Source of the DNA: a phage
Reading direction: 5' to 3' (one strand)
Assembly (NCBI GenBank): GCA_026066175.1
Contig: GCA_026066175.1_4721.2
DNA: 64,000 nt
A model generated the notes under the pieces. The model searched no databases. It worked only from the letters and a program-made list of their open reading frames with translations, and was not told where the DNA came from. Positions 11,186 through 48,721 of this stretch are shown one piece after another. Every line of letters begins with the position of its first letter. Within the stretch, counting starts at the first letter, position 1. The position numbers and the translations under genes were made by a program.

Positions 11186-11201
11186 GTCTTTTCCTATTTA
11201 A

Positions 11202-12053: not shown

Positions 12054-12063
12054 TGTTTATTCC

Positions 12064-27386: not shown

Positions 27387-28007
27387 TCACAAACGACGCA
27401 GGCGATAATGGATGGAACGATTGGTGCAATATGAACGGAACAGCGGTAATTGCGCAACTTCCGCAAGACTCATATTAATTCGCAGATGTTCGATAACCGC
27501 GCTGTAGTTATCGGCGATACGATCGCTCAGTAACTCTTCTGCCAATAAAGGAAGACAATCGACAACGATGGCGATCACATCCTCATTAACATAACGCACC
27601 CGAACATTGAGTGGACGTTTGTCTGGGCCGTAAGTTGGATCCGCCAAACGACGTTCAATATCGCGTGGATAGCTCGTCAGTAAATGGTAATAACCATTGT
27701 CATAACGATTGATGTACTCACACAGCACATCAACATTCTTCTCTGGCGGCAAACCTGTTTCGTCATAGTGATACGCAAACATACCACCAAGCAGGTTGTT
27801 AAGATGAACCGCAGGGTTCGCTTGTTCGTGTTCTTTCGTGATGAAGAAAGGCACGTTCTGGGCTGCGAAATAAAAACCTACATCATTGGGCGATAGTATG
27901 CCGAAAAGACTTTTAGGGTCTAATAACACCTGTAAGTCATCACGCGCATTTCGAATAATCGCGTGTTCTACCCAATTCGGAACGACGAGATATCGGAGTT
28001 CCTTCAT
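27387..28007 (-). CDS. hypothetical protein
   Basis: 206-aa ORF; SD agagg 8 nt upstream. Confidence 0.6.
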   Translation of the reverse strand: MKELRYLVVPNWVEHAIIRNARDDLQVLLDPKSLFGILSPNDVGFYFAAQNVPFFITKEHEQANPAVHLNNLLGGMFAYHYDETGLPPEKNVDVLCEYINRYDNGYYHLLTSYPRDIERRLADPTYGPDKRPLNVRVRYVNEDVIAIVVDCLPLLAEELLSDRIADNYSAVIEHLRINMSLAEVAQLPLFRSYCTNRSIHYRLRRL

Positions 28008-28045
28008 TATGATTACCTCTTTGCAAGTATCGAAAGGATTGAGTC

Positions 28046-29657
28046 GATGGACCCAAAACAGATAGCCATTAAGATTATTACGTTACTGTTTCGTAATGCA
28101 CAATTGAACCATCCCGATCCCAGTACGATCGAACATGTTAAATCCGTCTTAGATAAAATCGAACCCCCGAAAAACCATCTCACCGTTGATGTGGATAGAG
28201 AGGTTTTCAACAACCTGATGAACACCATTCATTGGATGTTGGAACAACCGTTATCGGAACCTTTCGATAAACAACAGTTGCTACAAAGGATACGTTTAGA
28301 TTGCCTGGAACAAAGCCACGTTTACGAAATTCTCGCCGACGGATTGTACGATATCGAAGACGATGCTCATATCAGTAAGGTCTGTTCGCTTTACTACAAT
28401 GAATTACGTAATCTGATTACCCGTCGTCGTGTATTTGAAACCTTTAAAAACACGTACATGGATATCAGTAACGGCCGCCTTGGGGACAAAGAATTTTTCG
28501 ACGCGATGGCGAATTTGAAACTATCGCTAGATACCATCGAAATGGATACTGAAAACCCCGAAGAAATGTCCTGTATGATTGACGGCTTCATCGCTGATAG
28601 TGAAGACGATATTGAAAAAGTCGAACGTATGTTCGTTAAGGCGATGGAGCGTAACAGTCCTGAAGGGGGATTTGTCACCGGCTGGCAGGGGTTTAATAAA
28701 ATGTTGGGGTCGGTCGGCGTATTACGTCGTGGTACTCTAGGATTGATTGGCGCGATGCAACACCGTAATAAATCAGGGGTGTTATTAAAACTTTTCACCC
28801 ACCTGGCGTTGTACAATAAACCCCATTTCTTTTTTCCGGAGCGCGCAAAGAAAGCCTTATTGATTCATCTCTCAACAGAGAACGAAGTTGAAGAAAACAC
28901 GCTTCAAATCTACAAGAACATGCGAGAACAGGAAACAGGTGAATATGTCGATATTCGTAAGATTGACCCACGTGAAGCTTCACGCTATGTACTGAACGTT
29001 TTCAATAATGCGGGGTTCTCTGTCTGCATGCGTCGTGTTGATGGAATGAGCTATAAACAACTTGCTAACCTTATCGACCATTTTGAACGTATGGGTTATG
29101 AAGTTATGGCTTTGTTCATCGACTATCTAAAAATGTTCTCGTCAGAAGGATTAGATAGGAATGGGCCTACGGGCGCTTGGCTGCAAGAACTCTTCAACAA
29201 AGTACGTAACCTCTGTAGCGTTAAACGTATTTTAGGTATGACCGTACACCAGTTGTCTTCTGATGCGAAGATGCGGGCACGTGATGGTAACGATGAAGAA
29301 TTTGTTGACCAAGTCGCCGGTTTAAGTTACTGGGATGGATGTAAAGGGATTGACCGTGAGATTGACCTTGAGGTAATTGTTGATATCGTTAAGGAACCTG
29401 GCAAACGTCAAAGCTGGCAGGTCTTTGCGCTAGGGAAAGACCGTCAACCGGATAACGGCTCAACAAAACCTGAAGATAAACATTTTGCGATGCCGTTCCA
29501 AACCATCGGGATGCTTCCTGACGATTACGGTAAGAAAGCGGTGTATTGCCGCAAGGTTGGCGGACAACCGGTCTCTGAAGGAGGCAAAGGTCCGTGGAAC
29601 AAGTTTGATGAACATGCCGCACCGAGTAATGAACTACAATTTGATTTAGAATTCTAA
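28046..29657 (+). CDS. hypothetical protein
   Basis: The ATG at 28046 (MDPKQIAIK...) is preceded by aaagga; the upstream in-frame extension from 27963 overlaps the divergent minus-strand gene and lacks an SD. Ends 26 nt before hairpin copy 4. Confidence 0.65.
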
Positions 29658-29682
29658 AACGCAAAAAAAAAATCGTACGGTT

Positions 29683-29714
29683 CCCTCCTCCAACCCGGAA
29701 GGGAAGGAGGAGGG
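29683..29714. terminator. conserved GNRA-capped hairpin element, copy 4
   Basis: ccctcctcc-aa-ccc-ggaa-ggg-aa-ggaggaggg between convergent stops (29657 and 29732); an A10 run lies upstream on the plus strand. Confidence 0.65.
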
Positions 29715-29731
29715 TTATGACCGTTATGGTG

Positions 29732-30058
29732 TTAACTTATCGTCATGAATTCCGTAGGTGAGAATTTCCAACCGTTTTCATTGAGAAGCGTGTTAAGTTT
29801 CGCTGCAACGATAAGCCATGCGTGCATGGCTGTCACATCGTATTGGCGATTAACACGGCGTTGGTTTTCGATATCGATTTGCTCCCGTTCGGTGATGTTT
29901 GGGTAGAGCGCGACGGCGCTGGGCTTCCCTAACGCATCACTCATTACCGCCTGACATTCACTGATGATGTTATTGAGATGATAATTGTAAACCGTTCCAC
30001 GCATAACACGATGACGGCATTCAATAATAGCGTCGTAAATAATTTCTCTTGTTGTCAT
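29732..30058 (-). CDS. small hypothetical protein
   Basis: 108-aa ORF with ATG start, 6 nt from the stop of the next gene. Confidence 0.55.
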   Translation of the reverse strand: MTTREIIYDAIIECRHRVMRGTVYNYHLNNIISECQAVMSDALGKPSAVALYPNITEREQIDIENQRRVNRQYDVTAMHAWLIVAAKLNTLLNENGWKFSPTEFMTIS

Positions 30059-30064
30059 GATCGA

Positions 30065-30466
30065 TTAAAACACACGTTCGTTTTTAGCACGGGCATCCAT
30101 AACCAAATCGTAGATACCAGCTGTTCGTAAACATTCTTCGTAATAACGGTGCGTACCTTCCTCCGCCATCCACGATAACCCACGACTATCGGCAACAATA
30201 ACCAGTTTGTTATTGTTGAATGCGCATACCACACGGTAAGTCGCATTGTTGTTTGGATCACGTGTAATCAGTTCGTAAACACCATTAACCGGTTTACTGA
30301 ATTCACCGTTCAGCGGAATAAGTTCCGTTGTACCTTCAGCAAACGTTACATTGATTGATGCTGGCTCTTTAGCAATGACGGTGTATTCCACGTTGTGTTC
30401 TTTACTGGTCATGATACCGAAATAAGAACTTACTGGAGAACGTGGTACACTAAGAATATTAAACAT
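30065..30466 (-). CDS. small hypothetical protein
   Basis: 133-aa ORF with ATG start. Confidence 0.55.
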   Translation of the reverse strand: MFNILSVPRSPVSSYFGIMTSKEHNVEYTVIAKEPASINVTFAEGTTELIPLNGEFSKPVNGVYELITRDPNNNATYRVVCAFNNNKLVIVADSRGLSWMAEEGTHRYYEECLRTAGIYDLVMDARAKNERVF

Positions 30467-30529
30467 GAATGTTGTCCTCTTAATTGGATATAGATTGTTG
30501 GTATGTATTTGAATAAGGTTGGTTTACTT

Positions 30530-31099
30530 TTAGACGATGAGCGTCCAGGTGGTCAGTACACCGCTTGCGAATTCAAGCTTAAGACGTTTACCAATAAGCT
30601 GTTGTTGGATCATCTTTTCCGTGATCCGACGATCGTGTTGAACGGCTTTATCGAATGCCTCTTTTGCTTCGGCTTGATAAAAGTTCGTTTCTTCGTTCTC
30701 GTCGATATCTTCGAATGCATCATCGTCGATATCAGCAAGTTTTACACGGCCGTTTTCATCGGGTTGTTCGGCCGGTTCGTTGTCGTAAGGCGTGTCTTTT
30801 GTCGGTGCGACACGGTGCTGTAGTTCAACCTGGGTTAGCATCACTTCCATCTCACCGTCGATAGGGATGATGTCATCAGCACTACCGTTTTCGGTTAGCT
30901 CTCGACTTTCCAGTAACGTCGTAGTAACAGTGAACACCTCCTCGACAGGAACCTCATCATCGTCGATGGTGTTAACCGTACCGCTGGTCACTTCGGCAAC
31001 AACCATCAAATCGAATGCGTGAGGGTCGCCGGGCATTTTGATCCCAGGAAGTTTGTTGAGATACCAAGGATCAAGAATCATGATTTCGGGATTAAACAT
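30530..31099 (-). CDS. acidic hypothetical protein
   Basis: 189-aa ORF, D/E-rich (DIDDDAFEDIDENEE); SD aaaagg. Confidence 0.55.
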   Translation of the reverse strand: MFNPEIMILDPWYLNKLPGIKMPGDPHAFDLMVVAEVTSGTVNTIDDDEVPVEEVFTVTTTLLESRELTENGSADDIIPIDGEMEVMLTQVELQHRVAPTKDTPYDNEPAEQPDENGRVKLADIDDDAFEDIDENEETNFYQAEAKEAFDKAVQHDRRITEKMIQQQLIGKRLKLEFASGVLTTWTLIV

Positions 31100-31174
31100 C
31101 GTATTTACCTTTTTATGTTAGGTGGGTTGCGGATGGAAGAATCAATGCATAGTCTGATTTAAGTTTGTTAAGAC

Positions 31175-32008
31175 TTACTTAGCTTTCGGATTATACGGAC
31201 TAACATGTTGTTGCATTCGTTGGATTGTTTCGTAGTACGGGTTATAATGAGTGAACATATTGTTGTATGGATGGTAGCCGTAAAGCGCATTTTGCCTTGC
31301 CGGTGAGAAACCTTTTTGAGAAGGACGATTTGAATTTACTGCGAGCACGTAGTAAACCAAATTTTGATGGTCGAATGTTCCTTCGTTTTTGAAGGTGTCA
31401 GCATAGGCGCTTACCGCAGGAGCAAGTCTATCACCATCGGTTGTAATGATCGTACCATCCGGGTAAACTTCTCGAACGATACACCATGTTCCGATGAGAA
31501 CATCTTCGGGTGTCTTATTACTGTATCCGACTGTAACGGTAAGGTAAGTATCGAATCCTCCTGAGCGCTGCGGATGTCGATAAATTGGGCCAGTCGTTTC
31601 TGCTTTATCGGTTACGGTTTTTTCGTAAGGACACTTCTTGATTGCTTTGATGTAAATATCGGGAATCTCTAATACCGCCTTATCAGGATGAATTCTAAAA
31701 TGATTCTTGAGTAAGCCCAAAAGGTTGGTTGCTACCACGTCGTGAGGTAGTACCCAATAACTGGTAGGGGAGTCATCGCCGTCTCTCTTGGAGAAGATGA
31801 CTGCCTTGTTATCGTCGTCTGGTAGACTGAAGAAAACGATTGACTCAATAGGCATAGCCAGCTCACCACAACAGGGGTCAGCGGATAACACCCAATTGTA
31901 TTTGTTGTCCGTTTCGTATAAATGTTCTGTTCTGTCGATACTACGATCCTTCAATTGGATGTAGCGTTCACGTTGTTTCTTGGTTAATTTACGGTAGATA
32001 GTGGTCAT
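31175..32008 (-). CDS. hypothetical protein, paralogue family B
   Basis: 277-aa ORF with SD aaggag; shares the N-terminal MT(D/T)(I/V)Y(R/T)KL and the PIY(R/V)HP...YPDG(T/R)I motifs with 32094..32867. Confidence 0.65.
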   Translation of the reverse strand: MTTIYRKLTKKQRERYIQLKDRSIDRTEHLYETDNKYNWVLSADPCCGELAMPIESIVFFSLPDDDNKAVIFSKRDGDDSPTSYWVLPHDVVATNLLGLLKNHFRIHPDKAVLEIPDIYIKAIKKCPYEKTVTDKAETTGPIYRHPQRSGGFDTYLTVTVGYSNKTPEDVLIGTWCIVREVYPDGTIITTDGDRLAPAVSAYADTFKNEGTFDHQNLVYYVLAVNSNRPSQKGFSPARQNALYGYHPYNNMFTHYNPYYETIQRMQQHVSPYNPKAK

Positions 32009-32093
32009 GTTAAGCTCCTTGATTACGGTAAGGATGATTTCGGTTTTGTGATGATGGTAGGACCACTTTGTTTAGGATCCTACCAGTACGGGA

Positions 32094-32867
32094 TTATTCA
32101 TGATCAGTGTAGAAATGGTGAGGATAGCCGGAGTACGATCCTGCGTTACCGGCTATGGATTCTTTCTGGGAATCGACGACGAGCGCGTAGAACTGTCGGG
32201 AATTTGTTAACGTTGAGAAATAAGAGGAAAGGACTTTTTCGTTCAACGCATCGCACGGTAGACAGGTACGCCCACAGAACGTCGTAATACGGCCATCCGG
32301 ATAGATCTCACGGATCATACGCCATTCACCGATATCAACCGGCGATGGCGCTGCTACACCACCTGTTATCGTTAAATAACGATCATACGTGGTATGACAT
32401 TCTGGATGTACGTAAATTGGCTTATTGGCCTCAACTTCTTCAGGAGCATAGCGTCGACCGAGAAGTTCAATAACCTCCAGATAGATTGTAGGCAGATCGC
32501 AAAGAACCCCTTCCTCTTTACGTTTCTTCGTGATTCGAGGACGAACCTCATTGATAACGTAGGCGAGTTCATTCAGCGCTTCTTGCGCTGGTAGCACGAA
32601 TAAACGGTCCGGTTTGTCGGACAAGTCTTCATTTACGTAAACGTAACAAACATCGTCTTTAGGCGCGTAGAAGAAGCGAGAGACCTTAAAGGTTTCCGTA
32701 GTACGATAACCGAGACGCGTTTGGTCCTGCACCAGAGAAAATATCCAGCGACGTCCTTCGTCCTGTTCAATGATATCATTGAACATCTTTGTTTGATCAG
32801 GAAGTTGATATTCTTCCTGTAATTTAGCAAGTGCTTCATTATCCAGTTTGGTGTAAACATCAGTCAT
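32094..32867 (-). CDS. hypothetical protein, paralogue family B
   Basis: 257-aa ORF; related to the 31175..32008 product over its full length. Confidence 0.65.
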   Translation of the reverse strand: MTDVYTKLDNEALAKLQEEYQLPDQTKMFNDIIEQDEGRRWIFSLVQDQTRLGYRTTETFKVSRFFYAPKDDVCYVYVNEDLSDKPDRLFVLPAQEALNELAYVINEVRPRITKKRKEEGVLCDLPTIYLEVIELLGRRYAPEEVEANKPIYVHPECHTTYDRYLTITGGVAAPSPVDIGEWRMIREIYPDGRITTFCGRTCLPCDALNEKVLSSYFSTLTNSRQFYALVVDSQKESIAGNAGSYSGYPHHFYTDHE

Positions 32868-32894
32868 GATAGTATCCTCGATTAGTAAGGTTGG

Positions 32895-33299
32895 CTAGTC
32901 TATCTTAAGCCAGATTGATGGTAAATGGAAATAGACACCGTCGTCTATTTGTTTTTGTGTTAACGGGGTTGGAAGTTTAGTGATGATGTTGTCGATCGAT
33001 TCCTCAATGTCACTTGTTAGAACGTCGATGTGGTAATAGCGAGCGATGCGTCCGTTACGTTCTAGCCAAAACAGACGAACGAAATCACTATTTTTATTAA
33101 TCGCATTCATAAACACGATTTGATGAAGCAGGATCATTCTTGACGAGGGGTAATCGTCAGGACGCGGAGTCATCACCAGTTCCCAACGTTTCCGTCGCAC
33201 GCCTTTTTTGAATTGACTCGTTACATTTGAACCACTTTTACCTAAGTTTATAACAAATTGCTTTAGACGATACGGTGTGTTTCTGTAAATATCGGTCAT
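32895..33299 (-). CDS. hypothetical protein, paralogue family B (N-terminal-domain-only member)
   Basis: 134-aa ORF; N-terminus MTDIYRNTPYRLKQF and C-terminal ...HLPSIWLKID align with the first ~130 aa of the two longer paralogues and stop at the LP(S/T/D)IY(L/I)K domain boundary. Confidence 0.55.
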   Translation of the reverse strand: MTDIYRNTPYRLKQFVINLGKSGSNVTSQFKKGVRRKRWELVMTPRPDDYPSSRMILLHQIVFMNAINKNSDFVRLFWLERNGRIARYYHIDVLTSDIEESIDNIITKLPTPLTQKQIDDGVYFHLPSIWLKID

Positions 33300-33383
33300 T
33301 GATTATAGCTCCAGGTTATTATCACTAAGGTAATATAGTCGTGAAATAAACTGGAGTAATAGAAATAATAAGACGGCATAAGA

Positions 33384-33414
33384 CCCTCTCCCAACCCGGA
33401 AGGGAAGGGAGAGG
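33384..33414. terminator. conserved GNRA-capped hairpin element, copy 5
   Basis: gcataaga-ccctctccc-aa-ccc-ggaa-ggg-aa-gggagagg, 6 nt downstream of the stop of 33420..34787; identical over ~39 nt to copy 7. Confidence 0.6.
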
Positions 33415-33419
33415 AAGTA

Positions 33420-34787
33420 TTAAACGGTTGGACGAACGGTGTTGTCTTTTTCCGGTGCAAGCCAGAGTGTGACGGTACCGTGGCAGGTCCATTGGGGTTC
33501 ACGTACAGAAGAACCCGCCATCGTAACAGCGCAATCGGTACGCATAACAACGCCGTAAGCTTCGCAAAGGTTATTGTCTTGCATCCAAACAACTTTAGCA
33601 GGCATGCCAGGATACAGTAAATCCATGTTGGCATGTTCCCATACCAACTGCATCGTTCGACCGCGTAACCCAGCAGTATTACTTAATTCCCGCCAACGGT
33701 TATCCGTTACCCGGCCCATCCCTTTTGCTACCTTCACGTTATCACTACGTTCTTCCGTCACATACTCGCTTACGTTCACGGTACGACTGATGATCGTATC
33801 ACCGCCCTTCGATAACGTCATTCCCTGGCTCATCTGACTCGCTGAAACAAAGCGTCCACCCGCATTACCTAACAATGAAGCTGCGTTGCTGATATCGCTG
33901 ACCGACGCACCTCGTGTACACGCGATCTCCACGTATTTGTCACGATTGATCCAGGTATTTTCCATGCCGGGAAACATATCGGCCGGATAATTGTAAAAAA
34001 TCGCCGTACGTCGACCGTCGGAGAAACGGGTTTCGTCATACAGAGGGTAGATATACAAATACGGTGATTGGTAATAGCAACCAACGTCCGCTGAATAAAT
34101 ACCGACCTGGTTCTGGATCTTATCAACAAGATCCATCGCGTTGGTACCATGAGGAAGAATCAATAACTTGAACAAATCATTGTTATTCGGTGCGACAATA
34201 TCAACACCCTGCATTTTGAAGCCGGTATCCGCTTCAACAGCAGAAAGGATTTTACTGAATTCGAGTCGCAGTACATCCAGAACTTTCGATCCAGTATAGT
34301 TCTCACCGGTTTCTGACTGCATGAAGCTTTCAAGAACAGGATCGAACAACTGGAATTGAAGATCGACCATCTGCTCGTAATCTTTCTTCGCAGAATCGGT
34401 TGCAGTACGTTCATCGGTTGCGGACATACGACTGTCTACGGTGGTTAAACAAACTGCCCGATAGACATAAGCTTGTGCGGCATCGTCTACGGTTTGGCGT
34501 TGTCCACGCATCAGACTGTACGCCTGCACGATGACGCGCATTTTAAGTTGTTGCTGGTACGGTAAAATGTATTTTCCGTAACTGCCCGGAGGGAACTTTA
34601 CAGAGATATAAAGTTCATCTCCTGCGTTACGTTCATAGTCTCGATACGTGTGGACTTGAGTCACTAAAGGAACAGACACCGTCATTGACGGCGTGATTAA
34701 TTCCGCGGTGACTTTATACGCAACAGCAACTGCTTCCTGCGCAAATGTACCGATATACCGTCCTAACGGCGTCTGTTTGTAATCCAT
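33420..34787 (-). CDS. hypothetical virion protein
   Basis: 455-aa ORF with ATG start, followed by the hairpin element. Confidence 0.65.
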   Translation of the reverse strand: MDYKQTPLGRYIGTFAQEAVAVAYKVTAELITPSMTVSVPLVTQVHTYRDYERNAGDELYISVKFPPGSYGKYILPYQQQLKMRVIVQAYSLMRGQRQTVDDAAQAYVYRAVCLTTVDSRMSATDERTATDSAKKDYEQMVDLQFQLFDPVLESFMQSETGENYTGSKVLDVLRLEFSKILSAVEADTGFKMQGVDIVAPNNNDLFKLLILPHGTNAMDLVDKIQNQVGIYSADVGCYYQSPYLYIYPLYDETRFSDGRRTAIFYNYPADMFPGMENTWINRDKYVEIACTRGASVSDISNAASLLGNAGGRFVSASQMSQGMTLSKGGDTIISRTVNVSEYVTEERSDNVKVAKGMGRVTDNRWRELSNTAGLRGRTMQLVWEHANMDLLYPGMPAKVVWMQDNNLCEAYGVVMRTDCAVTMAGSSVREPQWTCHGTVTLWLAPEKDNTVRPTV

Positions 34788-42123: not shown

Positions 42124-43227
42124 TTAAAAGTAATATTTCAGCGCCTCGCGAGAGACGTCAAGCATAGCCGCCGTTGAGTTCGTGAAGAACTCGGCATAGC
42201 CCACAAGCGGCACCTTGATCCACGCGGTATACGCTGTAAGGTATCGAGAAAGGGCTACCATAGCATCATCAGAAGCTGTAATGGATAACTGACCTTGTTG
42301 ACGATACACATCGTTCAGTTTTGCTTGCAGGTTCCCTGCGATCTCAAGTAATTCGTTGGCGTACTTTTTACGATGGTACGTAATAAGCAGATCAACACCG
42401 GTATTTACCGATTCGAGTAAAACGCCAATCTGCTCCAACGACGGCATGGTTACAACCATATCACGCTCAACAGACACGACGTCCTGAACTTCAAATCGTG
42501 CTGATTGAATCGCGAGAGATTGTTGGATTGCTCCAGAACCCGTTGCGGTAACCTGATCAAGTCGTAGCATCCGGTTACCTAACAACGTCGTGTTAACCAG
42601 CCGCGATTCATTCAACGCACTGTACACCTTGTTCAACAGCGTGTGTGCATCACGATTAATCACATCGATTAATGCGGTATCCGTCTGTTTTAAGATGATG
42701 TCAAGCGCTCTGTCTAACGTGTTTGCGAACTGTTTGAAGTCATCACGGAACGACGTTGACAACAGGTATTCTGCGATCTTCAGGTTTTGTTTGTATAACG
42801 TGTTTCCGGTGGTGAAGTCGAACCCGAAACTGTTTCCATAACGCAAATGTGGTGCGAGCGTGGGTGAGGCTTCAAAACTTTGCGCGATGGGTTTATGTCC
42901 AACCGCTTTCGTGTATTGACGACGGATATTACTCAGCTCGATTTGCAACGCACGACTGCGGTCGATATACCGTGCGATGAAAGCAGTGATATTCCGCAAC
43001 GTTGTCCAAATCGCATCGATGATCGCTTTGATGATTTTCATCGCAAGCTGGTTGTATGATTCCAGGGTAAGGAGATCAGCGCTTTCTGTAGCATAACCGG
43101 TTGCCAGAGCGCCGCCCGCTTGCTGATAAATAAGCTGATGGATTTGTCGTTGTGTTGCCGTCTCAGGTAGAGGTAAGGTTTTTAACAAGCTTAAGGCTTG
43201 GATTTGTCCATCATTGGTCTGCAGCAT
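42124..43227 (-). CDS. virion protein, paralogue family C (head-internal/ejection-type protein candidate)
   Basis: The ATG at 43227 (MLQTNDGQ...) has SD gagga with an 8-nt spacer; the track start at 43290 would overlap the upstream gene by 80 nt. Shares the central A..A(L)..W....I helix region with 43211..48721 genes. Confidence 0.55.
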   Translation of the reverse strand: MLQTNDGQIQALSLLKTLPLPETATQRQIHQLIYQQAGGALATGYATESADLLTLESYNQLAMKIIKAIIDAIWTTLRNITAFIARYIDRSRALQIELSNIRRQYTKAVGHKPIAQSFEASPTLAPHLRYGNSFGFDFTTGNTLYKQNLKIAEYLLSTSFRDDFKQFANTLDRALDIILKQTDTALIDVINRDAHTLLNKVYSALNESRLVNTTLLGNRMLRLDQVTATGSGAIQQSLAIQSARFEVQDVVSVERDMVVTMPSLEQIGVLLESVNTGVDLLITYHRKKYANELLEIAGNLQAKLNDVYRQQGQLSITASDDAMVALSRYLTAYTAWIKVPLVGYAEFFTNSTAAMLDVSREALKYYF

Positions 43228-44512
43228 TGCGGGTTTCCTCAAGTTCGAGATGTGCATCAAGGTAATCGTTAAGACCATCGATGACGTCACAGACCGTTAA
43301 CAGGAATCGAGCAAAAGCAACGGCCTGGAAGCCAACGACATTACGAGCAATGCTAACACGTTGCACAATGGCGGTTGAAGCCGCTTGGTCATCGTAGATC
43401 TGATGCAACAAACGTTCGTAGGGCTGAATCCATTCATCTTGATCAGCGAGGCTTGCCTCAAGACAACGTTTAAATTCCAATTGACGTAGCGTTGACCATA
43501 AGGTGCTTAATGCGCCGATGATGGCGTTGGTTCCATCAAGAACATCGTTCAAGGGCAGGAAACGGAATCCGTCCTTCGCTGACTGGAAAGGAATGGCTTC
43601 CCATACAACGCTAAACTGTGCGCCAGTATAATCATCGACGTTCAGTACTTTTAACTGCGAAGCGCCAACCGGTGCGTTTATGATGACGTCATTGGTTTCA
43701 GTGTTCTCCAACGGCTTTTCACACAACGCGTCGTTGATCGCCTTAAGGATGTTTTCCCAACATGCCTCATTTTCAGCCGCGATGTTATCTTTGTTCTCCA
43801 ACACCGGTGCTTTTAATAACCGCATCAGTAACGGATCAAGCTGACGATGCCATGCCGCCAGTATCCCGGTATTTGTCATGATGTTTTCTGCGGTCTGTTG
43901 TAAATCCGCAACGCTGCTTACCGCACCGCCTCTTGGATGGAGATATCGCCAGTTATACGGGAAGTTCTCCCAGAAGGCATTATCTTCGTTAACCGTATAT
44001 GCAGGAAGATTTTTCAGTTTTACGGCTTTCTTCAGCAACGGTTTTACTTGACGCACAAAACGACGATAACTGCGGTTGCAAATATCAATGGCGTAGCGAT
44101 ACAACTCGTTCATGTAAAGCCATAACGCTCGGGTTGCCTCTTTCGCGGTTTTGTCAAAACTTTCCATGTTAAGACTCATCCCACCTGAGGTTTCCTCTTC
44201 CATCCCATCGATGATCTGATTGGGATCCATTCCCATCCCAGCCGCTGCGGTTGAAGCGATATGTTTGATGGTATTAATATCACGTTCTTCAACTTCGGTC
44301 ATGTTAGGGACAATATCTAACCGGAGTTTGTTTAATGTTTGAAGGTGTTGTTCACCTTCCTTCATGACGGTGTTCGTTTCATCGAGTGAGCGAAGCTGAT
44401 TTTCGATATTACCGACATCGAGGATGTTGCCAGCGACACCGAATGATTCTACAGGTTCATCATCTATCCCTTGAAACAACGCGGTCATGGGTTGTTGCAA
44501 CACGTTTTCCAT
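43211..44512 (-). CDS. virion protein, paralogue family C
   Basis: 433-aa ORF with SD aggag; DINTIKHIASTAAAGMGMDPNQ...TAKEATRALWLYMNEL aligns with DVALIRQIASTSAANLGMSDED...KERAAQALYAVWVTI in 44666..45958. Confidence 0.65.
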   Translation of the reverse strand: MENVLQQPMTALFQGIDDEPVESFGVAGNILDVGNIENQLRSLDETNTVMKEGEQHLQTLNKLRLDIVPNMTEVEERDINTIKHIASTAAAGMGMDPNQIIDGMEEETSGGMSLNMESFDKTAKEATRALWLYMNELYRYAIDICNRSYRRFVRQVKPLLKKAVKLKNLPAYTVNEDNAFWENFPYNWRYLHPRGGAVSSVADLQQTAENIMTNTGILAAWHRQLDPLLMRLLKAPVLENKDNIAAENEACWENILKAINDALCEKPLENTETNDVIINAPVGASQLKVLNVDDYTGAQFSVVWEAIPFQSAKDGFRFLPLNDVLDGTNAIIGALSTLWSTLRQLEFKRCLEASLADQDEWIQPYERLLHQIYDDQAASTAIVQRVSIARNVVGFQAVAFARFLLTVCDVIDGLNDYLDAHLELEETRNAADQ

Positions 44513-44568
44513 TTAGGACTCCTACGTAGGAAAGATCATGGTGGGTGATCATGTCCACCATTGTGCGC

Positions 44569-44591
44569 GGTATGGAGCGTGGCTCCATACC
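44569..44591 (-). promoter_or_regulatory. perfect 10-bp stem / 3-nt loop hairpin in the 5' leader of 43211..44512
   Basis: ggtatggagc-gtg-gctccatacc, about 60 nt upstream of the start codon. Confidence 0.4.
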
Positions 44592-44626
44592 CAAGTCAAA
44601 AGATAACCGGATATTAACGGCATATA

Positions 44627-44658
44627 CCCTCCTCCTTCCCTTCCGGGTTGGAGGAGGG
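44627..44658. terminator. conserved GNRA-capped hairpin element, copy 6 (canonical sequence on the minus strand)
   Basis: Plus strand reads ccctcctcc-tt-ccc-ttcc-ggg-tt-ggaggaggg, the reverse complement of the canonical element; 8 nt downstream of the stop of 44666..45958. Confidence 0.6.
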
Positions 44659-44665
44659 ATTTAGC

Positions 44666-45958
44666 TTATTTTGCTTTCTCGGTTACCGCGTTGAAGTATT
44701 TCGCTGCAGCAAATACCGCCTCCGCATACTGACGGACAGAGGCACGGAGGATCTTGGTTCCTAATACCGAGCTTAAACGAGCCATTTCTGTTACAGCCGC
44801 GATATAAGGACGTACGGTTTCACGATCGGCCTCAGGTAACTTGTCGAGCATTTCGCCCCACTTCGTTTTGATTTTCATTCCGTTGAGTTTAGCATCTCGT
44901 CCTACAGTGCTTGCCAAACTTTCAACTTTATGCAAATATGTCGGCTCCACCCTATGGAATGCCTTCAGATATGCCGTCAATGCGCTTTTCAGCTCATTCC
45001 CATCGTGGAAAATATTCACATTTTCGATATTATCTGTTACGGTGTCAACAACTTCGATATGAACATCCTTCACCAAAGCACATGCTTTAATGACATCTTT
45101 CTCTTTTTCTAACGCATCCAGCCCTTTAACGACATATTGTTTTCCGCCGCTTTCTGGAAGTCTGAACGCTCTCAGCGCAGCTTTAGTGGTCTGAAGATAC
45201 TTATCTAGAACACTATCGAGCGTTGTTAAATCAGTTAGGACATTGATGTCGTAGTTGATGTCACCGATCATAGTAAATAGGAAATCTGACGTCGCCGCAC
45301 TTGCAGCTAATTGTTCGATATGTTTGCTAACGGATGTTGCATTAACCGATTTTGCGTTCGGGAACATATTAACCATATTCCCGGTAGGCTTCTCTAGCTG
45401 CTTGATCTGACGTTCCCCTTTATTGACTTCGGATGCGATTTTGGTGATCTCAGCATAAGCCAGAACGAGATTCTTGAAAAGCGTCTGGAGCAACTTAAAC
45501 AATTGTTCAGCAATATTCGCGATGGTGACCCAGACCGCATACAGTGCTTGCGCTGCACGTTCCTTGAAGCCTTCCAGCACGATAGCTTGGCCTTCGACTA
45601 ACTTATCATTAGCCTGGAACATGTCTTCATCAGACATACCCAGGTTAGCTGCCGATGTTGATGCGATTTGGCGGATAAGCGCAACGTCGCTGGCGCGGGC
45701 TTCTGTGATCGTTGATGCGATTACGTAGGCGGTATCTTCCAACGTTGCTGATGTCCGTACAGCGATTTCAGCCAGTTCGCTGTTCTCGTCGATGCTGTCG
45801 TCGGTATGTCGAATCACCAACTCAACTTCATCTTCCTCAATTTCTGCGTTGGGGTCTTGTTGCTCGGGTGAAATCGATGCAAGAACATCTTCAGCGCTGA
45901 GTAGTGCGAGTTCAAAAGCGTTTTTATTGATGTTATCAAAAAGAGAAATACGGGCCAT
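44666..45958 (-). CDS. virion protein, paralogue family C
   Basis: 430-aa ORF with SD aaggaa; acidic N-terminal region (PEQQDPNAEIEEDEVELV...) followed by the conserved family core. Confidence 0.65.
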   Translation of the reverse strand: MARISLFDNINKNAFELALLSAEDVLASISPEQQDPNAEIEEDEVELVIRHTDDSIDENSELAEIAVRTSATLEDTAYVIASTITEARASDVALIRQIASTSAANLGMSDEDMFQANDKLVEGQAIVLEGFKERAAQALYAVWVTIANIAEQLFKLLQTLFKNLVLAYAEITKIASEVNKGERQIKQLEKPTGNMVNMFPNAKSVNATSVSKHIEQLAASAATSDFLFTMIGDINYDINVLTDLTTLDSVLDKYLQTTKAALRAFRLPESGGKQYVVKGLDALEKEKDVIKACALVKDVHIEVVDTVTDNIENVNIFHDGNELKSALTAYLKAFHRVEPTYLHKVESLASTVGRDAKLNGMKIKTKWGEMLDKLPEADRETVRPYIAAVTEMARLSSVLGTKILRASVRQYAEAVFAAAKYFNAVTEKAK

Positions 45959-45967
45959 GTGGGTTCC

Positions 45968-47287
45968 TTAACCTTTAGTATAGGCTTTAACGAGGGTGTT
46001 AATAAAAGAAGTTAATGCACGAAGGTACTGATAAGCGAATTGGTTTTCAATACGTTGCTCTTTACTGCAGAGCATGATCGCCCGTTTCACCAGTTTGGGA
46101 TATATTTCAACGTACGGTTTATAACTGTCGTCGTATTGCTGCGTATCGAATTTTTTCATGGCTTCATACTGCAGCTTTTCCATCTGACGAACACGAGCAC
46201 GATCGAAGATCTTGGAGAACGCACGTCCGCGTTGGGTGATCGCAATCAGATCTTTCGCTAACGAAAGCGGTTTAACGCTACGGAAATCATCCGGTGTGGG
46301 TAGCGTGTAGTTTTCTGGATCGCTATCCCATTCGGTCGCTGCGTCTTCAACCACGACATCCAATTTCAGATAATTTTCAATCGCGGCAAGAACGTTGTCT
46401 TTTGCCGCATTGAATTCTTTTAAGAACACAGCAGCATTAACATAACGAATACGTTTACCAGAAACCGCCGGTGTAACCACATCACTCCCGTCAACGGAAC
46501 CTCTGTTCTCCAATGCGGTTTTCAGTGTATCCAGAAACGACATGTAGTCCACAGGAAGTTGGTCAACACGATCTAAACGAAAATCGAATGTCTTCACACC
46601 AAGACCGGTGGTAAGGTCGTAACGTGCACCGCCTGCCATGATTCGGTTATAGTTCTCAAGGTTCTTCTTGATTTCGTCAACACCACCGACATGATTGCGA
46701 TTGGAAAAGAGGATACGCCAACCGGCTTTGAACGGCACGGTAACCGTTTCTTCTTTACCTTTCGGAAGTTTTTCTAACGCTTTGATCGCATTCTGGAAAT
46801 TGCGGGTTTCATCATAGATGATCCGCGTTAATCCTTCCAGGACAGCAGCCAGTTGCAGAACAATATCAACAATGATATCCCAGATCTTTTTCAACGCTCG
46901 AACGACGGTGTCTTTGAACCCTTCAACAACCAACGCTTCACCCACGGTGATGTTGTCAGTAGGACGAAGCATTGCATCGGAAGGCAGACCTAAAGCGATT
47001 GAGGCGGATTCTTGAACGTTACGTACCAATGCAACGTCGCTGTAGTTAGCCGTCTCAATCGTTGGTGCAACATCAAAACTGATTTCTCGTAATGCTTCAA
47101 CAGCAGGGAAAGCACGATCGAGCGCCTCTTCATGTTCATCGATGTTCGCTAAACGGAGTTCAACCCCATCAGCGTCAATGACTTCGGTGGTAGGCTCTGC
47201 TGCAAGCGCCTCGGCAACGATGGGATCCTTCTCAAAAGCTTCAAGGCTAATATCGCCTTGTGTAGCAAATAGTGGTATACGTACCAT
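45968..47287 (-). CDS. virion protein, paralogue family C
   Basis: The ATG at 47287 (MVRIPLFATQGDISLEAF...) is preceded by tggaga; the track start at 47311 is a TTG with no SD. Collinear with 44666..45958 (RI(S/P)LF...DVAL(I/V)R...EGFK(E/D)). Confidence 0.65.
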   Translation of the reverse strand: MVRIPLFATQGDISLEAFEKDPIVAEALAAEPTTEVIDADGVELRLANIDEHEEALDRAFPAVEALREISFDVAPTIETANYSDVALVRNVQESASIALGLPSDAMLRPTDNITVGEALVVEGFKDTVVRALKKIWDIIVDIVLQLAAVLEGLTRIIYDETRNFQNAIKALEKLPKGKEETVTVPFKAGWRILFSNRNHVGGVDEIKKNLENYNRIMAGGARYDLTTGLGVKTFDFRLDRVDQLPVDYMSFLDTLKTALENRGSVDGSDVVTPAVSGKRIRYVNAAVFLKEFNAAKDNVLAAIENYLKLDVVVEDAATEWDSDPENYTLPTPDDFRSVKPLSLAKDLIAITQRGRAFSKIFDRARVRQMEKLQYEAMKKFDTQQYDDSYKPYVEIYPKLVKRAIMLCSKEQRIENQFAYQYLRALTSFINTLVKAYTKG

Positions 47288-47335
47288 GTGATGTCTCCAG
47301 TAATAATTCAAAAGATAAATCAGCGCAGCATAAGA

Positions 47336-47367
47336 CCCTCTCCCAACCCGGAAGGGAAGGGAGAGGG
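47336..47367. terminator. conserved GNRA-capped hairpin element, copy 7
   Basis: gcataaga-ccctctccc-aa-ccc-ggaa-ggg-aa-gggagaggg-aatatg, 23 nt downstream of the stop of 47390..48721. Confidence 0.6.
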
Positions 47368-47389
47368 AATATGTCAGTTTACTAACTGA

Positions 47390-48721
47390 TTATTTCTGTG
47401 CTGCGTCAGCCGGTTTTTCAGCCGCCTGGCCGCTGTACTCTTTCAGCATTTTAGCAACGCCGTCCAGTACTGCGTTACCCGCCTGAACACCGTACTTCAT
47501 CAGGCTAACCTGCGGGTTGATGTAGCAAGAACGTGCGTCTTTCAGTGCAGACAGCACAGTTTTAACACGCTGTTTCTCTTGAGCAGAAACTTCGCCTTTC
47601 TTAGCCAGTTCAGCTTCCATATCGTCGCCGAATTTAACAGCGTCTTTGAAGCCCTGGGATTTCTTACCGATGTTACCTTTCGCAGCCAGCAGTTTATCGG
47701 CCAGCGCTTCAACGCTGTTGATCACCGCAGCCATCTGGTTCGGGGACAGTACATCGGCTTCCTGTTCCATCACGGTGATTGCGTTATTGCCGCGTTCCCA
47801 GGTCACTTTACCGTCGGTGGTTTTGAATCCCCAACCGTTCGGACCTTTCACATCAGCGATCGCAGGCGCGTTCAGTTTGTCGGTGTACTCAGTATGTGAT
47901 TTAGACTTAACGAGTTCAACGAATTTATCCGCACGATCGTCAGCCGCCTTCATTGCTTTCTCGAAGGTATCTGCGATTTTGCTTGATGCACCAGCGATAT
48001 CGATATCGCCAATATAACCGGTAACAGTGGTGCCCAGTTTAACTTTCGCGTTCTTCGGAGAGCCTTTACGTTTGGCGATCATTTCTTTCAGTTTAGCCGC
48101 ACGTGCTTTCAGTTTGGTTGCACCGTCGAAGATACGATCGATGAACTTCACGAAGTTGTCCCAGGTGGATTTCAGGAAGTTCTTAATTGCAGTCCACAGT
48201 TTCTGCCACCATTTCTGTTCTTCCAGGAAGATCATGTTGGTTGCATCATAACGGGAAGCGGAACCGCCGAAGCTTTCGAAGGAAGGCATGGTTTCCGGCA
48301 GTTTGAAGCCGATAGTACCACACAGACGTTTCAGATTACGCATGTGTTCTTGCGCGGTCTGTGCAGACATACCACCGTCTTTCAGATAGCTTTCGGTCGC
48401 AACAACGGTTTCCGTCATTTCGTCCATGGCTTCGTCCATGGCTTCAGCGGTTTCGTCGTCTTTTGCGATTTCGATAACAACAGCATCAACCTGCTCGATG
48501 TCACCACGGACTTCGATAGCCAGTTCGGTTTCAGCAGCGGTGTCTTCAGCGATTTCAGCACGTTCGGTCAGTTCAGCCACAACGGTTTCATCGCCTGCAG
48601 CAGCATCGGCTGCCGGTTCTGCTTCAACGGTTGCCGCAGCTTCCGGATCGATCTCAGCAGCCAGTTGAACCAGCTGTGCGTTAGATGGATTTGCGACAAG
48701 ACGATCAAAAATAGAAGGCAT
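47390..48721 (-). CDS. abundant virion protein, paralogue family C, with acidic AxE-rich N-terminal region (propeptide-like)
   Basis: 443-aa ORF with SD taaagga; strongly optimised codon usage; N-terminal ~100 aa are acidic and alanine-rich with many A-x-E triplets (AAEIDPEAAATVEAEPAADAAAGDETVVAELTERAEIAEDTAAETELAIE...). Confidence 0.65.
   Translation of the reverse strand: MPSIFDRLVANPSNAQLVQLAAEIDPEAAATVEAEPAADAAAGDETVVAELTERAEIAEDTAAETELAIEVRGDIEQVDAVVIEIAKDDETAEAMDEAMDEMTETVVATESYLKDGGMSAQTAQEHMRNLKRLCGTIGFKLPETMPSFESFGGSASRYDATNMIFLEEQKWWQKLWTAIKNFLKSTWDNFVKFIDRIFDGATKLKARAAKLKEMIAKRKGSPKNAKVKLGTTVTGYIGDIDIAGASSKIADTFEKAMKAADDRADKFVELVKSKSHTEYTDKLNAPAIADVKGPNGWGFKTTDGKVTWERGNNAITVMEQEADVLSPNQMAAVINSVEALADKLLAAKGNIGKKSQGFKDAVKFGDDMEAELAKKGEVSAQEKQRVKTVLSALKDARSCYINPQVSLMKYGVQAGNAVLDGVAKMLKEYSGQAAEKPADAAQK

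What the first reader, a model, noticed from the sequence alone, without database searches (positions are those of the whole stretch)
31175..33299. Third paralogue array (family B) including an N-terminal-domain-only member
31175..32008 and 32094..32867 are full-length paralogues (shared MT(D/T)(I/V)Y.KL N-terminus and PIY.HP...YPDG.I core). 32895..33299 encodes only the N-terminal ~130 aa and terminates exactly at the conserved LP.IY(L/I)K domain boundary. It could be a domain-swapped regulator or decoy, or a decaying duplicate. These small, fast-evolving duplicated genes lie between structural blocks, a typical location for accessory or anti-defence genes.
Basis: partly seen in the sequence, partly recalled or inferred. 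Interest (0 to 1): 0.5.

Follow-up and report, generated by a model that had tools for sequence, protein, structure and literature searches.

The report
Early variable gene cassettes, orphan family
Three neighbouring genes of a Goslar-like giant E. coli/Salmonella phage encode a protein family with no known relatives (two full two-domain copies and one conserved half-length copy); they lie in a swap-prone, dispensable spot that appears to be switched on in the first minutes of infection, which makes them candidates for host-manipulation or anti-defence factors, although their function is untested.

Summary
All three genes are on the minus strand. A277 (31175..32008) and B257 (32094..32867) are paralogues (30% identity, E=3e-21). 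C134 (32895..33299) is homologous to their N-terminal domain only (HHalign 93.9%, E=1.6e-7) and stops at the end of that domain's last predicted strand.

C134 does not look like a decaying duplicate. It is an intact 134-codon ORF in relatives down to 75% identity, with dN/dS of 0.24-0.39. AlphaFold2 predicts a stand-alone domain (pLDDT 86).

The window is a Goslar-like nucleus-forming jumbo phage. The array sits in a hypervariable island with 0-4 family genes. Reference Goslar keeps only a 25-codon deletion scar. N-domains are swapped as alleles (about 30% aa identity) on nearly identical C-domains (96-98%). Flanking genes are 94-100% identical.

The array follows a strong terminator hairpin and a 26-nt motif. 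In Goslar this motif heads operons, including the homologous gp47-gp44 operon, that are still transcribed when nucleus formation is blocked. It also precedes chmA. The array is therefore probably early-expressed, not structural.

Sequence and fold searches found nothing outside Goslar-like phages. Function is untested; an early host-interaction or counter-defence role is my inference.

The parts
33420..34787 (-). Upstream neighbour: homologue of Goslar gp48, the baseplate spike-cap protein (T4 gp27-like). A late gene and not part of the array; it marks the conserved left border of the island.
   Evidence: 97-100% aa identical in all relatives. PHROG 3245, E=4e-95. gp48 is named spike cap in the Goslar virion structure preprint 10.64898/2026.04.21.720040. 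Goslar gp48 falls log2FC -3.2 on ChmA knockdown.
33384..33414 (-). Strong RNA hairpin (CCUCUCCC...GGGAGAGG) followed by a U-rich tail. Candidate terminator closing the late baseplate/neck operon.
   Evidence: dG -23.5 kcal/mol, z = -4.65, 0 of 200 shuffles fold as well. Conserved at this position in all loci. Related stem words (AAGGGAAGG, GGAGGAGGG) are over-represented in the window.
33319..33349 (-). Candidate early (virion RNA polymerase / EPI-vesicle stage) promoter: TTATTTCACGACTATATTACCTTAGTGATAA. The core ends 30 nt upstream of the C134 ATG.
   Evidence: Unique in the window and conserved upstream of the first family gene in every locus. In Goslar the core occurs 8 times with <=1 mismatch, against 0.35 in shuffles; all copies are on the minus strand and intergenic. 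A PWM adds 4 sites, including one upstream of chmA/gp189. Operons behind the motif stay expressed when ChmA is knocked down, while adjacent genes drop 8- to 100-fold.
32895..33299 (-). C134: stand-alone N-domain member of the family (134 aa, pI 9.7). First gene of the array. GGAG Shine-Dalgarno 9 nt before the ATG.
32094..32867 (-). B257: full-length member. N-domain aa 1-135 (nt 32463..32867, type I allele), disordered linker aa 136-148, conserved C-domain aa 149-235 (nt 32163..32423; PIYVHP...YDRYLTITGG...GEWRMIREIYPDGRITT), Tyr/Pro/His-rich tail aa 236-257.
32055..32085 (-). Conserved RNA hairpin in the B-to-A intergenic spacer (GGUAGGAUCC...GGUCCUACC). Role unknown; possibly an attenuator, processing site or stabiliser.
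   Evidence: dG -19.5 kcal/mol, z = -3.0. The same hairpin is present in L002 and L005 with changes on both arms that keep pairing.
31175..32008 (-). A277: full-length member. N-domain aa 1-122 (nt 31643..32008), linker, conserved C-domain aa 140-228 (nt 31325..31591; PIYRHP...FDTYLTVT...GTWCIVREVYPDGTIIT), 49-aa Tyr/Asn/Pro/His-rich basic tail (nt 31178..31324).
29732..31099 (-). Downstream genes of the same putative early operon: homologues of Goslar gp46 (30530..31099, 189 aa, acidic), gp45 (30065..30466, 133 aa) and gp44 (29732..30058, 108 aa). Function unknown. They form the conserved right border of the island.
   Evidence: 94-99% aa identical in relatives. No Pfam or PHROG family. Goslar gp44-gp46 log2FC +1.0 to +1.3 on ChmA knockdown.

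Best explanation
The three genes form a tandem array of accessory cassettes at the head of an early operon of a Goslar-like nucleus-forming jumbo phage. The operon order is terminator, early promoter, C134, B257, A277, then the gp46, gp45 and gp44 homologues.

The family is an orphan found only in Goslar-like phages. Its modular build is:
- an alpha/beta N-domain of about 125-135 aa that exists as highly divergent, recombinationally swapped alleles;
- a disordered linker of variable length;
- a strongly conserved beta-rich C-domain of about 87 aa;
- a Tyr/Pro/His/Asn-rich tail.

C134 is a free-standing copy of the N-domain that arose once and has since been kept by purifying selection.

Shown here: paralogy and domain limits; conservation and selection on C134; copy-number variation, domain swapping and deletion scars; dispensability in reference Goslar; and the presence of the same promoter-like motif that heads Goslar operons transcribed without a phage nucleus.

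Inferred: the proteins are made in the host cytoplasm in the first minutes of infection and act on host or competitor components, as host take-over or counter-defence factors. In this reading the variable N-domain is the specificity or recognition surface and the C-domain supplies a constant activity or anchoring partner. C134 would then work as a stand-alone binder: a sequestering inhibitor or decoy, or a competitor or regulator of the full-length proteins. It is basic (pI 9.7), whereas the adjacent B257 N-domain is acidic (pI 4.7).
For: Paralogy and domain structure; AF2 models.

C134 is conserved:
- Seven 90%-identity clusters at 75-99% identity. Six are 134 aa; one is 126 aa through an in-frame deletion. 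They were found on dozens of contigs from E. coli O157, several Salmonella serovars and wastewater metagenomes.
- dN/dS 0.24-0.39, with binomial p=5e-5 to 1e-3 for excess synonymous change.

The island is hypervariable between conserved flanks. Layouts seen include 455|C|B|A|189, 455|B|A|189, 455|B|D|E|189, 455|C|B|D|E|189, 455|X210|E|189 and 455|scar|189. Flanks are 94-100% aa identical with dN/dS 0.01-0.10.

Domain swapping: W versus L005 B genes have N-domains 31% aa / 45% nt identical and C-domains 98% aa / 96% nt identical. P0004 combines the window's N allele with another C allele. Three N allele classes were found. C-domain dN/dS is 0.03-0.25, against up to 0.70 in N-domains.

Dispensability: Goslar gp47 is the fusion of the first 15 and last 10 codons of an E-type member.

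Early expression:
- Motif statistics and positions.
- The motif lies upstream of chmA, which is gp189.
- RNA-seq of Goslar with ChmA knocked down, from Supplementary Table 2 of bioRxiv 10.1101/2023.09.20.558163: gp44-47 +0.7 to +1.3, against gp48-50 -2.5 to -3.8 and gp41-43 -3.9 to -5.5. The same switch occurs at the gp4/5, gp21/22, gp40/41 and gp75/76 boundaries, each marked by the motif. The authors interpret these as early genes expressed from the EPI vesicle.

Against: - No functional evidence of any kind exists. 'Counter-defence / host take-over' rests on timing, variability and dispensability only.
- Early timing is inferred from Goslar, which carries only the scar at this position. No transcript data exist for a phage that has the array. 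Late read-through from the same-strand gp48 operon is not excluded.
- The motif-to-promoter assignment is correlative: no transcription start sites have been mapped in Goslar.
- The same B N-domain allele occurs in phages from E. coli O157 and from Salmonella serovars, so alleles do not track host genus.
- No site-level test for positive selection was run; pairwise dN/dS is <1 everywhere.
- C134 is present in only a minority of relatives, and rare copies carry a frameshift, an N-terminal truncation or an 8-aa deletion in a predicted core strand. Its contribution must therefore be conditional.
- The fold searches used predicted models. The C-domain pLDDT is only about 75, and AFDB was not searched.
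Confidence: 0.5

Rival explanations
1. Virion-delivered proteins in the manner of T4 internal proteins or jumbo-phage ejection proteins. The conserved N-terminus MT.IY.KL would be a packaging or targeting signal, and the variable bodies would be injected anti-host effectors. The position next to baseplate and head genes would reflect late co-expression.
For: - The array lies between structural gene blocks: gp48 spike cap upstream, major capsid protein gene nearby.
- All members, even the very divergent C134, share the first 5-8 residues.
- T4 internal-protein loci are likewise hyperplastic (own knowledge).
Against: - A strong terminator and an early-type promoter motif separate the array from gp48.
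- The homologous Goslar operon gp47-gp44 behaves as early and nucleus-independent, whereas structural genes drop 8- to 100-fold.
- Goslar builds complete virions without any family member.
- No S/A/G-x-E or L/I-x-E protease motif follows the conserved N-terminus (read directly from the sequences).
- In both AF2 models residues 2-5 are predicted as a beta-strand at pLDDT 85-89, so they appear to belong to the folded N-domain rather than to a removable leader.
Confidence: 0.08
2. Factors for phage-phage competition or for the persistent (carrier-state) lifestyle of Goslar-like phages. Examples would be superinfection exclusion or modulation of host physiology during long-term association, rather than inhibition of bacterial immune systems.
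For: - Early expression, dispensability and allele diversity (as listed for the best explanation) fit this equally well.
- Goslar-like phages are found almost only inside bacterial isolate assemblies, which has been interpreted as persistent infection (10.1101/2024.12.31.630880 and PMC12768965).
- The one plaque-isolated member, Goslar, has lost the array.
Against: - Only one isolate exists, so the correlation with lifestyle has n=1.
- Relatives recovered from assemblies and metagenomes also carry the scar (L016, L022).
- No homology to known exclusion proteins, and no membrane segments or signal peptides are evident in the sequences.
Confidence: 0.17
3. C134 specifically is a non-functional leftover of a deletion that removed the linker and C-domain. 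It persists only because it lies between the promoter and the next gene. The full-length genes are the only functional units.
For: - The island is deletion-prone: a scar in Goslar, L016 and L022, and a C-domain-only remnant in L018.
- C134 is absent from most relatives.
- Individual copies have a frameshift in an A-run (P0046), an N-terminal truncation (P0045) or an 8-aa in-frame deletion in a predicted core strand (P0021, L014).
Against: - The ORF is intact and of identical length across lineages that have accumulated dS up to 0.57, with dN/dS 0.24-0.39. That is similar to the full-length genes and significantly below neutrality.
- It has its own Shine-Dalgarno sequence.
- It has a confidently predicted, complete domain fold (pLDDT 86, pTM 0.82).
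- It is less diverged between its two subgroups (about 76% aa) than the adjacent B N-domains in the same genomes (about 30% aa).
Confidence: 0.15
4. The whole array is selectively neutral or selfish duplicated DNA with no benefit to the phage.
For: - Complete loss in Goslar without loss of viability.
- Extreme copy-number variation.
Against: - C-domains are under strong purifying selection (dN/dS 0.03-0.25) and stay 96-98% identical across swapped N-domains.
- 23 invariant columns were found among 17 diverse full-length members.
- No homing-endonuclease or transposase features were found.
Confidence: 0.05

Closest known systems
Hyperplastic accessory regions of T4-like phages, in particular the internal-protein (IPI/IPII/IPIII) locus (own knowledge)
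   Same: A short genome segment between conserved genes holds a variable number of small, rapidly diversifying genes. These share a short conserved N-terminus and differ between otherwise near-identical phages. At least one T4 member (IPI*) is an anti-restriction protein. Members are dispensable in the laboratory.
   Different: T4 internal proteins are late, carry a cleavable capsid-targeting sequence and are packaged. Here the operon is of the early class, no protease motif is present, and the conserved N-terminus is part of the predicted fold. There is no sequence or structural similarity. The family here has a two-domain build with a conserved C-domain.
Early, vRNAP-transcribed accessory genes of phiKZ-like (Chimalliviridae) phages and their AT-rich early promoters (PMC7598289, PMC8244752)
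   Same: A conserved AT-rich element of about 10 nt preceded by a T-rich stretch, found upstream of operons of small genes of unknown function and of the chimallin gene. Expression is independent of the phage nucleus.
   Different: The extended Goslar motif (tTTCACGrCTAyATTACyTwnrTGA) was derived here and has not been mapped to transcription start sites. The proteins have no homologues in phiKZ, SPN3US, RAY or any other chimallivirus.
Phage anti-defence gene islands (own knowledge: anti-CRISPR and other counter-defence loci cluster in variable regions next to conserved anchors)
   Same: A variable cassette content at a fixed genomic address bounded by conserved genes; small orphan proteins; mosaic exchange between close relatives; dispensability.
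   Different: No member matches any known anti-defence family or structure. No associated regulator of the Aca type is evident. No activity has been shown.
NHL-repeat beta-propeller proteins (the only non-family hits of the exhaustive profile search)
   Same: A stretch of 17-20 residues (..REIYPDGxIxT..) resembles one blade motif of NHL repeats.
   Different: The hits are sums of 4-8 short matches to repeated blades, with E of 3e-5 to 5e-4. The family has a single copy of the motif in an 87-aa domain. Pfam NHL does not hit the family, and the AF2 model is not a propeller. This is a chance motif resemblance.

Membership tests
Family B (this orphan family): is C134 a member? | Homology to the N-terminal domain over its full length, with the same secondary-structure order | tested here: met
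   HHalign 93.9%, E=1.6e-7, columns 1-133 against 1-132. BLASTP E=4.8e-6 to L006 271-aa member. AF2 element order is identical.
Family B (this orphan family): is C134 a member? | Conserved C-domain (PIYxHP...YDxYLTI...GxWxxxRExxxDGxxxT) | tested here: not met
   The ORF stops after LPSIWLKID. B257 starts 27 nt later, so no remnant is present. C134 is an N-domain-only derivative.
T4-type internal proteins / jumbo-phage ejection proteins | Late expression together with head genes | tested here: not met
   An early-type motif and a terminator separate the array from late genes. The Goslar operon at this site is nucleus-independent. This is indirect, because it comes from the Goslar homologous locus.
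T4-type internal proteins / jumbo-phage ejection proteins | N-terminal targeting or propeptide ending in a prohead-protease site (L/I-x-E in T4; S/A/G-x-E in phiKZ-like phages) | tested here: not met
   No such motif directly follows the conserved MT.IY.KL in A277, B257 or C134 (sequences). Residues 2-5 are a predicted strand of the domain.
T4-type internal proteins / jumbo-phage ejection proteins | Presence in the virion | not testable with these tools
   This needs mass spectrometry of an array-bearing phage. Goslar virions lack the family by definition.
Known anti-defence protein families | Sequence or fold similarity to a characterised inhibitor | tested here: not met
Known anti-defence protein families | Demonstrated inhibition of a defence system | not testable with these tools
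   Requires an experiment.
Anti-phage defence systems (PADLOC) | Match to a defence-protein model | tested here: not met
   0 families at E<=1 for six family members and the neighbour X210.
NHL-repeat / beta-propeller proteins | Multiple tandem blade repeats recognised by the Pfam NHL model | tested here: not met
   A single motif copy, no Pfam hit, and the model is a small beta domain.
Chimalliviridae early (vRNAP) transcription units | Conserved AT-rich promoter element shared with other early operons, including chmA | tested here: met
   8 core plus 4 PWM sites in Goslar, against 0.35 expected. One site is upstream of chmA, and one is at the array position in every locus.
Chimalliviridae early (vRNAP) transcription units | Transcription in the absence of the phage nucleus / at 5 min post infection | tested here: inconclusive
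   Met for the homologous Goslar operon gp47-gp44 in published RNA-seq. No data exist for a phage that carries the array.

The most novel reading that the evidence does not exclude
Family B is a previously unrecognised class of modular early effectors of E. coli/Salmonella nucleus-forming phages, built from two folds without detectable relatives. A constant C-terminal effector or anchor domain is re-targeted by exchangeable N-terminal recognition domains. A free N-domain (C134) acts as a decoy or competitive regulator. Together they would neutralise protein-sensing host immunity during the vulnerable pre-nucleus (EPI vesicle) stage.
Probability: 0.22. Interest if true: 0.72.

Novelty: new variant of a known kind. 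Interest (0 to 1): 0.45.

Why it matters
Nucleus-forming jumbo phages shield their DNA. Their exposed stage is therefore the first minutes of infection, when early proteins are made in the host cytoplasm and protein-sensing defences such as Avs5 act (PMC12931631). A hypervariable, early-class cassette site holding an orphan modular protein family is a rational place to look for the counter-measures and host-range determinants of this group.

Goslarviruses have recently been found in hundreds of clinical E. coli, Shigella and Salmonella assemblies, yet only one has been isolated. Reference Goslar has lost the array. That gives a ready experiment: add the genes back in trans and look for gained plating.

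Two by-products are directly usable. The candidate Goslar early-promoter motif can guide annotation and engineering. Recognising gp47 as a deletion scar corrects the reference annotation.

Tried and rejected
- Sequence family searches gave nothing for any family member: Pfam, PHROGs, NCBIfam and PADLOC.
- tblastn of B257 and C134 against 50,697 phage records gave no hit.
- Megablast of the array against complete E. coli genomes and PLSDB plasmids gave no hit.
- The PDB sequence profile search gave only E=1.6 noise.
- The exhaustive profile search produced NHL-repeat proteins. I rejected these as multi-blade matches to the short YPDG motif.
- The sigma-70 promoter and intrinsic-terminator scan was uninformative, with counts equal to shuffles.
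- The Rfam scan of 28-36 kb gave only a sub-threshold chance hit.
- DNA-level repeats within the array show only the conserved C-domain core, so there has been no recent gene conversion.
- Stop-codon read-through fusing C134 to B257 was considered, because the two ORFs are in frame with no intervening stop in both spacer variants. I set it aside because the stop is TAG in one lineage and TAA in the other.
- The GTDB representative genomes scan for the gp48 anchor found nothing.
- A literature search for the motif string was useless.
- RefSeq HOV27 locus tags above about gp100 are not listed collinearly in the RNA-seq table. I relied mainly on gp1-gp76, where gene lengths and strands confirm the mapping.
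Full report
**1. What is at the coordinates**

The region 31175..33299 holds three same-strand (minus) ORFs of 277, 257 and 134 aa, here called A277, B257 and C134. Each has a Shine-Dalgarno sequence at normal spacing.

- A277 and B257 align end to end: 30% identity, E=3e-21.
- C134 is only marginally similar to the window's own paralogues (E=9e-4 and 0.014).
- C134 matches full-length members from relatives better (E=4.8e-6, residues 41-133).
- A profile of nine C134 orthologues aligns with a profile of 17 full-length proteins over C134 1-133 against B257 1-132 (HHalign 93.9%, E=1.6e-7).
- C134 ends ...LPSIWLKID, in register with LPTIYLEV (B257) and IPDIYIKA (A277).

AlphaFold2 models:
- B257, with a 17-sequence alignment, has mean pLDDT 72.9. 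The N-domain (residues 1-135) scores 75-93, the linker 138-158 scores below 50, the beta-rich C-domain (about 160-232) scores roughly 55-77, and the tail is disordered.
- C134 alone gives pLDDT 86 and pTM 0.82, with the same order of secondary-structure elements as the B257 N-domain. Its stop codon follows the last strand directly.

No other family member occurs in the 64-kb window.

**2. Genomic and evolutionary context**

The flanks are 87% identical in DNA to Escherichia phage vB_EcoM_Goslar, a nucleus-forming chimallivirus. Only 37% of a 3.5-kb query matched, because Goslar lacks the array.

In Goslar, the gap between gp48 and gp46 holds only 'gp47'. These two genes correspond to the window's 455-aa gene at 33420..34787 and its 189-aa gene at 30530..31099. 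The last 25 codons of gp47 (MTLLIRDPSEYENTRYNHNQFGNNF) are the first 15 and last 10 codons of a 291-aa family member found in a relative. gp47 is therefore an in-frame deletion scar.

Family members were found only on Goslar-like contigs of about 240 kb. These come from E. coli, Shigella and Salmonella isolate assemblies and from metagenomes. The window's three proteins are identical to 'hypothetical proteins' of an E. coli O157 assembly. This fits two recent reports that Goslarviruses are common in bacterial assemblies although only one has been isolated.

Across 25 fetched loci the island between the two conserved genes shows these layouts:
- C|B|A (this window and L014)
- X210|C|B|A
- B|A
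- X210|B|A
- B|D|E
- C|B|D|E
- X210|B|D|E-remnant (C-domain only)
- X210|E
- X210|scar, or scar alone

The flanking genes are 94-100% identical in protein, with dN/dS of 0.01-0.10. Array genes range from 45 to 100% identity, with dN/dS of 0.08-0.44.

**3. Modular evolution**

Splitting the genes by domain shows a sharp contrast. Between the window and L005, the B N-domains are 31% aa / 45% nt identical, while the C-domains are 98% aa / 96% nt identical. C-domain dN/dS is 0.03-0.25. N-domain dN/dS is 0.13-0.70.

B N-domains fall into three allele classes that are about 30-59% identical to each other. P0004 joins the window's N allele to a different C allele. Recombination at or near the linker therefore shuffles N-domains onto a conserved C-domain.

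Full-length members share 23 invariant positions, nearly all in the C-domain (I151, Y152, H154, P155, D162, Y164, L165, G170, V177, G180, W182, R186, E187, D191, G192, T196, G199, P204, Y227 in B257 numbering). At the DNA level the window's paralogues retain similarity only in this core, so the duplication is old.

**4. Is the short gene alive?**

Evidence that it is:
- C134 orthologues form seven 90%-identity clusters at 75-99% identity to the window copy. Six are exactly 134 aa. All end in the same LPSIWLKID stop and all lie directly upstream of a B-type gene.
- Pairwise dN/dS is 0.24-0.39 at dS up to 0.57. Synonymous changes are significantly over-represented (p=5e-5 to 1e-3).
- The two C134 subgroups are about 76% identical, while the adjacent B N-domains in the same genomes are only about 30% identical.

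A single old truncation that has since been kept by selection is the simplest reading.

Evidence that it is dispensable:
- The gene is absent from most relatives: 2 of 9 informative loci retrieved through the gp48 anchor carry it.
- Single contigs carry a frameshift in an A-run, an N-terminally truncated copy, or an 8-aa in-frame deletion within a predicted core strand.

The gene is therefore useful but conditional.

**5. Expression class**

Directly after the gp48 homologue lies a strong hairpin with a U-rich tail (dG -23.5 kcal/mol, z -4.65). It is followed by a conserved element, TTATTTCACGACTATATTACCTTAGTGATAA (33349..33319). This element precedes the first family gene in every locus, whichever gene that is.

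In the complete Goslar genome:
- The core CACGrCTAyATTAC occurs 8 times with at most 1 mismatch, against 0.35 in shuffles. All copies are on the minus strand and intergenic.
- A weight matrix adds four sites, one of them upstream of gp189, which is chimallin ChmA.

Published RNA-seq of Goslar with ChmA knocked down arrests infection at the early vesicle stage, where only the first transcriptional programme runs. That data set shows a switch at the motif positions:

| Genes | log2 fold change | Motif |
|---|---|---|
| gp44-gp47 | +0.7 to +1.3 | motif upstream of gp47 |
| gp48-gp50 | -2.5 to -3.8 | |
| gp41-gp43 | -3.9 to -5.5 | |
| gp4-gp1, gp21-gp14, gp40-gp37, gp75 | about +0.2 to +1.4 | each operon headed by the motif |
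| gp5-13, gp22-36, gp76-77 | -3 to -7 | |

This matches the general description of jumbo-phage early promoters: a T-rich stretch followed by a conserved AT-rich element near -10. I recall the phiKZ early consensus containing TATATTAC, but could not verify this in the held texts.

I therefore read the element as an early promoter, and the array as the head of an early operon continuing through the gp46, gp45 and gp44 homologues (31099..29732). This step is inferred for the window's phage, because Goslar has only the scar at that place.

**6. What the proteins are**

Nothing known was found:
- No Pfam, PHROG, NCBIfam or PADLOC match.
- No tblastn hit in 50,697 phage genomes.
- An exhaustive profile search of 1.84 billion representative proteins found four clusters, all from Goslar-like phages. 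The remaining hits were NHL-repeat proteins that match only the short ..REIYPDGxIxT.. motif many times over.
- No PDB relative by sequence.

No hydrophobic segments are evident in the sequences, so the proteins are probably soluble. C134 is basic (pI 9.7), the B257 N-domain is acidic (4.7), and the tails are Tyr/Pro/His/Asn-rich.

**7. Interpretation**

Five properties together place the array among phage accessory host-interaction genes rather than structural genes:
- early class;
- dispensability in the laboratory phage;
- a fixed address with variable cassette content;
- allele swapping of one domain on a constant partner domain;
- restriction to one phage genus.

The most likely mechanism is an inference. 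These would be cytoplasmic early proteins in which the N-domain provides specificity and the C-domain provides a constant activity or docking function. C134 would be a free specificity module: a binder, decoy or competitor.

Rivals, in my order of likelihood:
1. A role in phage-phage competition or the persistent lifestyle.
2. C134 as an inert leftover.
3. Packaged effectors of the T4 internal-protein type. This is disfavoured by the terminator, the promoter class, the lack of protease motifs and Goslar's complete virions.
4. Neutral DNA. This is disfavoured by strong constraint on the C-domain.

**8. Novelty and score**

The kind of locus is familiar: a hypervariable accessory island in a large lytic phage. 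The protein family, its two apparently unmatched folds, the domain-swapping pattern and the conserved N-only member have not been described. The family is absent from the one studied genome of the genus.

Function remains unknown and all functional statements are inference. I rate interest at 0.45. The most novel reading still open is a modular early counter-defence family with a decoy or regulator subunit, at a probability of about 0.2.

Noticed in passing
window 33319..33349 (-); Goslar MK327938 minus-strand sites at 2573, 15073, 43284, 49738, 86711, 113803, 142806, 160809, 166075, 172996, 201962, 226701: There is a 26-nt motif, tTTCACGrCTAyATTACyTwnrTGA. It marks the starts of Goslar operons that stay transcribed when ChmA is knocked down, and it also precedes chmA. 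It is probably the Goslarvirus early (virion RNA polymerase) promoter. I found no description of it in the papers read.
   Followed up: partly
L001 6641..6829 (Goslar MK327938 49584..49772, gp47); also L016 8060..8248 and L022 about 8170..8248: The annotated 62-aa Goslar gp47 is a deletion scar. Its last 25 codons fuse the first 15 and last 10 codons of a 291-aa family member, and the annotated N-terminal 37 codons are the translated promoter/5'UTR region. The scar is still transcribed (94-137 reads in published RNA-seq).
   Followed up: yes
L002 5226..5858; L010 3170..3880; L012 3247..3879; L016, L018, L020, L022, L023, L025 (not in the window): Many relatives carry an extra 210-aa gene (X210) between gp48 and the terminator, that is, on the late side of the terminator. 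It has no family match, only weak sub-threshold TusA-like Pfam hits (E=0.002-0.017). By eye it contains YRG...SFT...QxE, reminiscent of ADP-ribosyltransferase R-S-E motifs; this was not verified.
   Followed up: partly
window 32868..32897 (-) and equivalent spacers in L008, L009, L010, L012, L014, L021, L024: C134 and the following B gene are always in the same reading frame with no stop in the spacer, in both the 27-nt and the 42-nt spacer versions. This would allow a read-through fusion, but the stop codon is TAG in one lineage and TAA in the other, so it is probably coincidence or a trace of the gene's origin.
   Followed up: partly
window 32055..32085 (-); L002, L005 B-to-A spacers; a different hairpin in L006/L024 D-to-E and L010 B-to-A spacers: Conserved intergenic RNA hairpins precede the A- and E-type genes (dG -19.5 kcal/mol, z -3.0 in the window). 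Between loci, arm changes preserve pairing. No U-tract follows, and the role is unknown.
   Followed up: partly
L018 10003..10449: A 148-aa ORF keeps only the linker, C-domain and tail of an E-type member, with the N-domain deleted. It is the mirror image of C134. It was seen in one contig only, so it may be a recent deletion product.
   Followed up: no
window-wide, e.g. 33384..33414: Words from C/T-rich hairpin stems are strongly over-represented in the window: GGAGGAGGG/CCCTCCTCC 8 observed against 0.38 expected, and AAGGGAAGG/CCTTCCCTT 9 against 0.46. This suggests a repeated family of terminator hairpins.
   Followed up: no
window 9380..12999 (-) and 43211..48721 (-): Two further tandem arrays of similar-sized ORFs (301/294/283/311 aa and 433/430/447/443 aa) correspond in position to Goslar gp31-34 and gp55-58. 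gp31, gp32 and gp34 are annotated as weakly similar to virion structural proteins; gp33 and gp55-58 carry no such note.
   Followed up: no
window 33296..33634 (-): A 112-aa ORF overlaps the 3' end of the gp48 homologue, the terminator and the promoter region. It is almost certainly spurious.
   Followed up: no
window 28001..32000: G+C drops to 43-44% across the early operon and array, against 47-50% in the surrounding structural regions.
   Followed up: no
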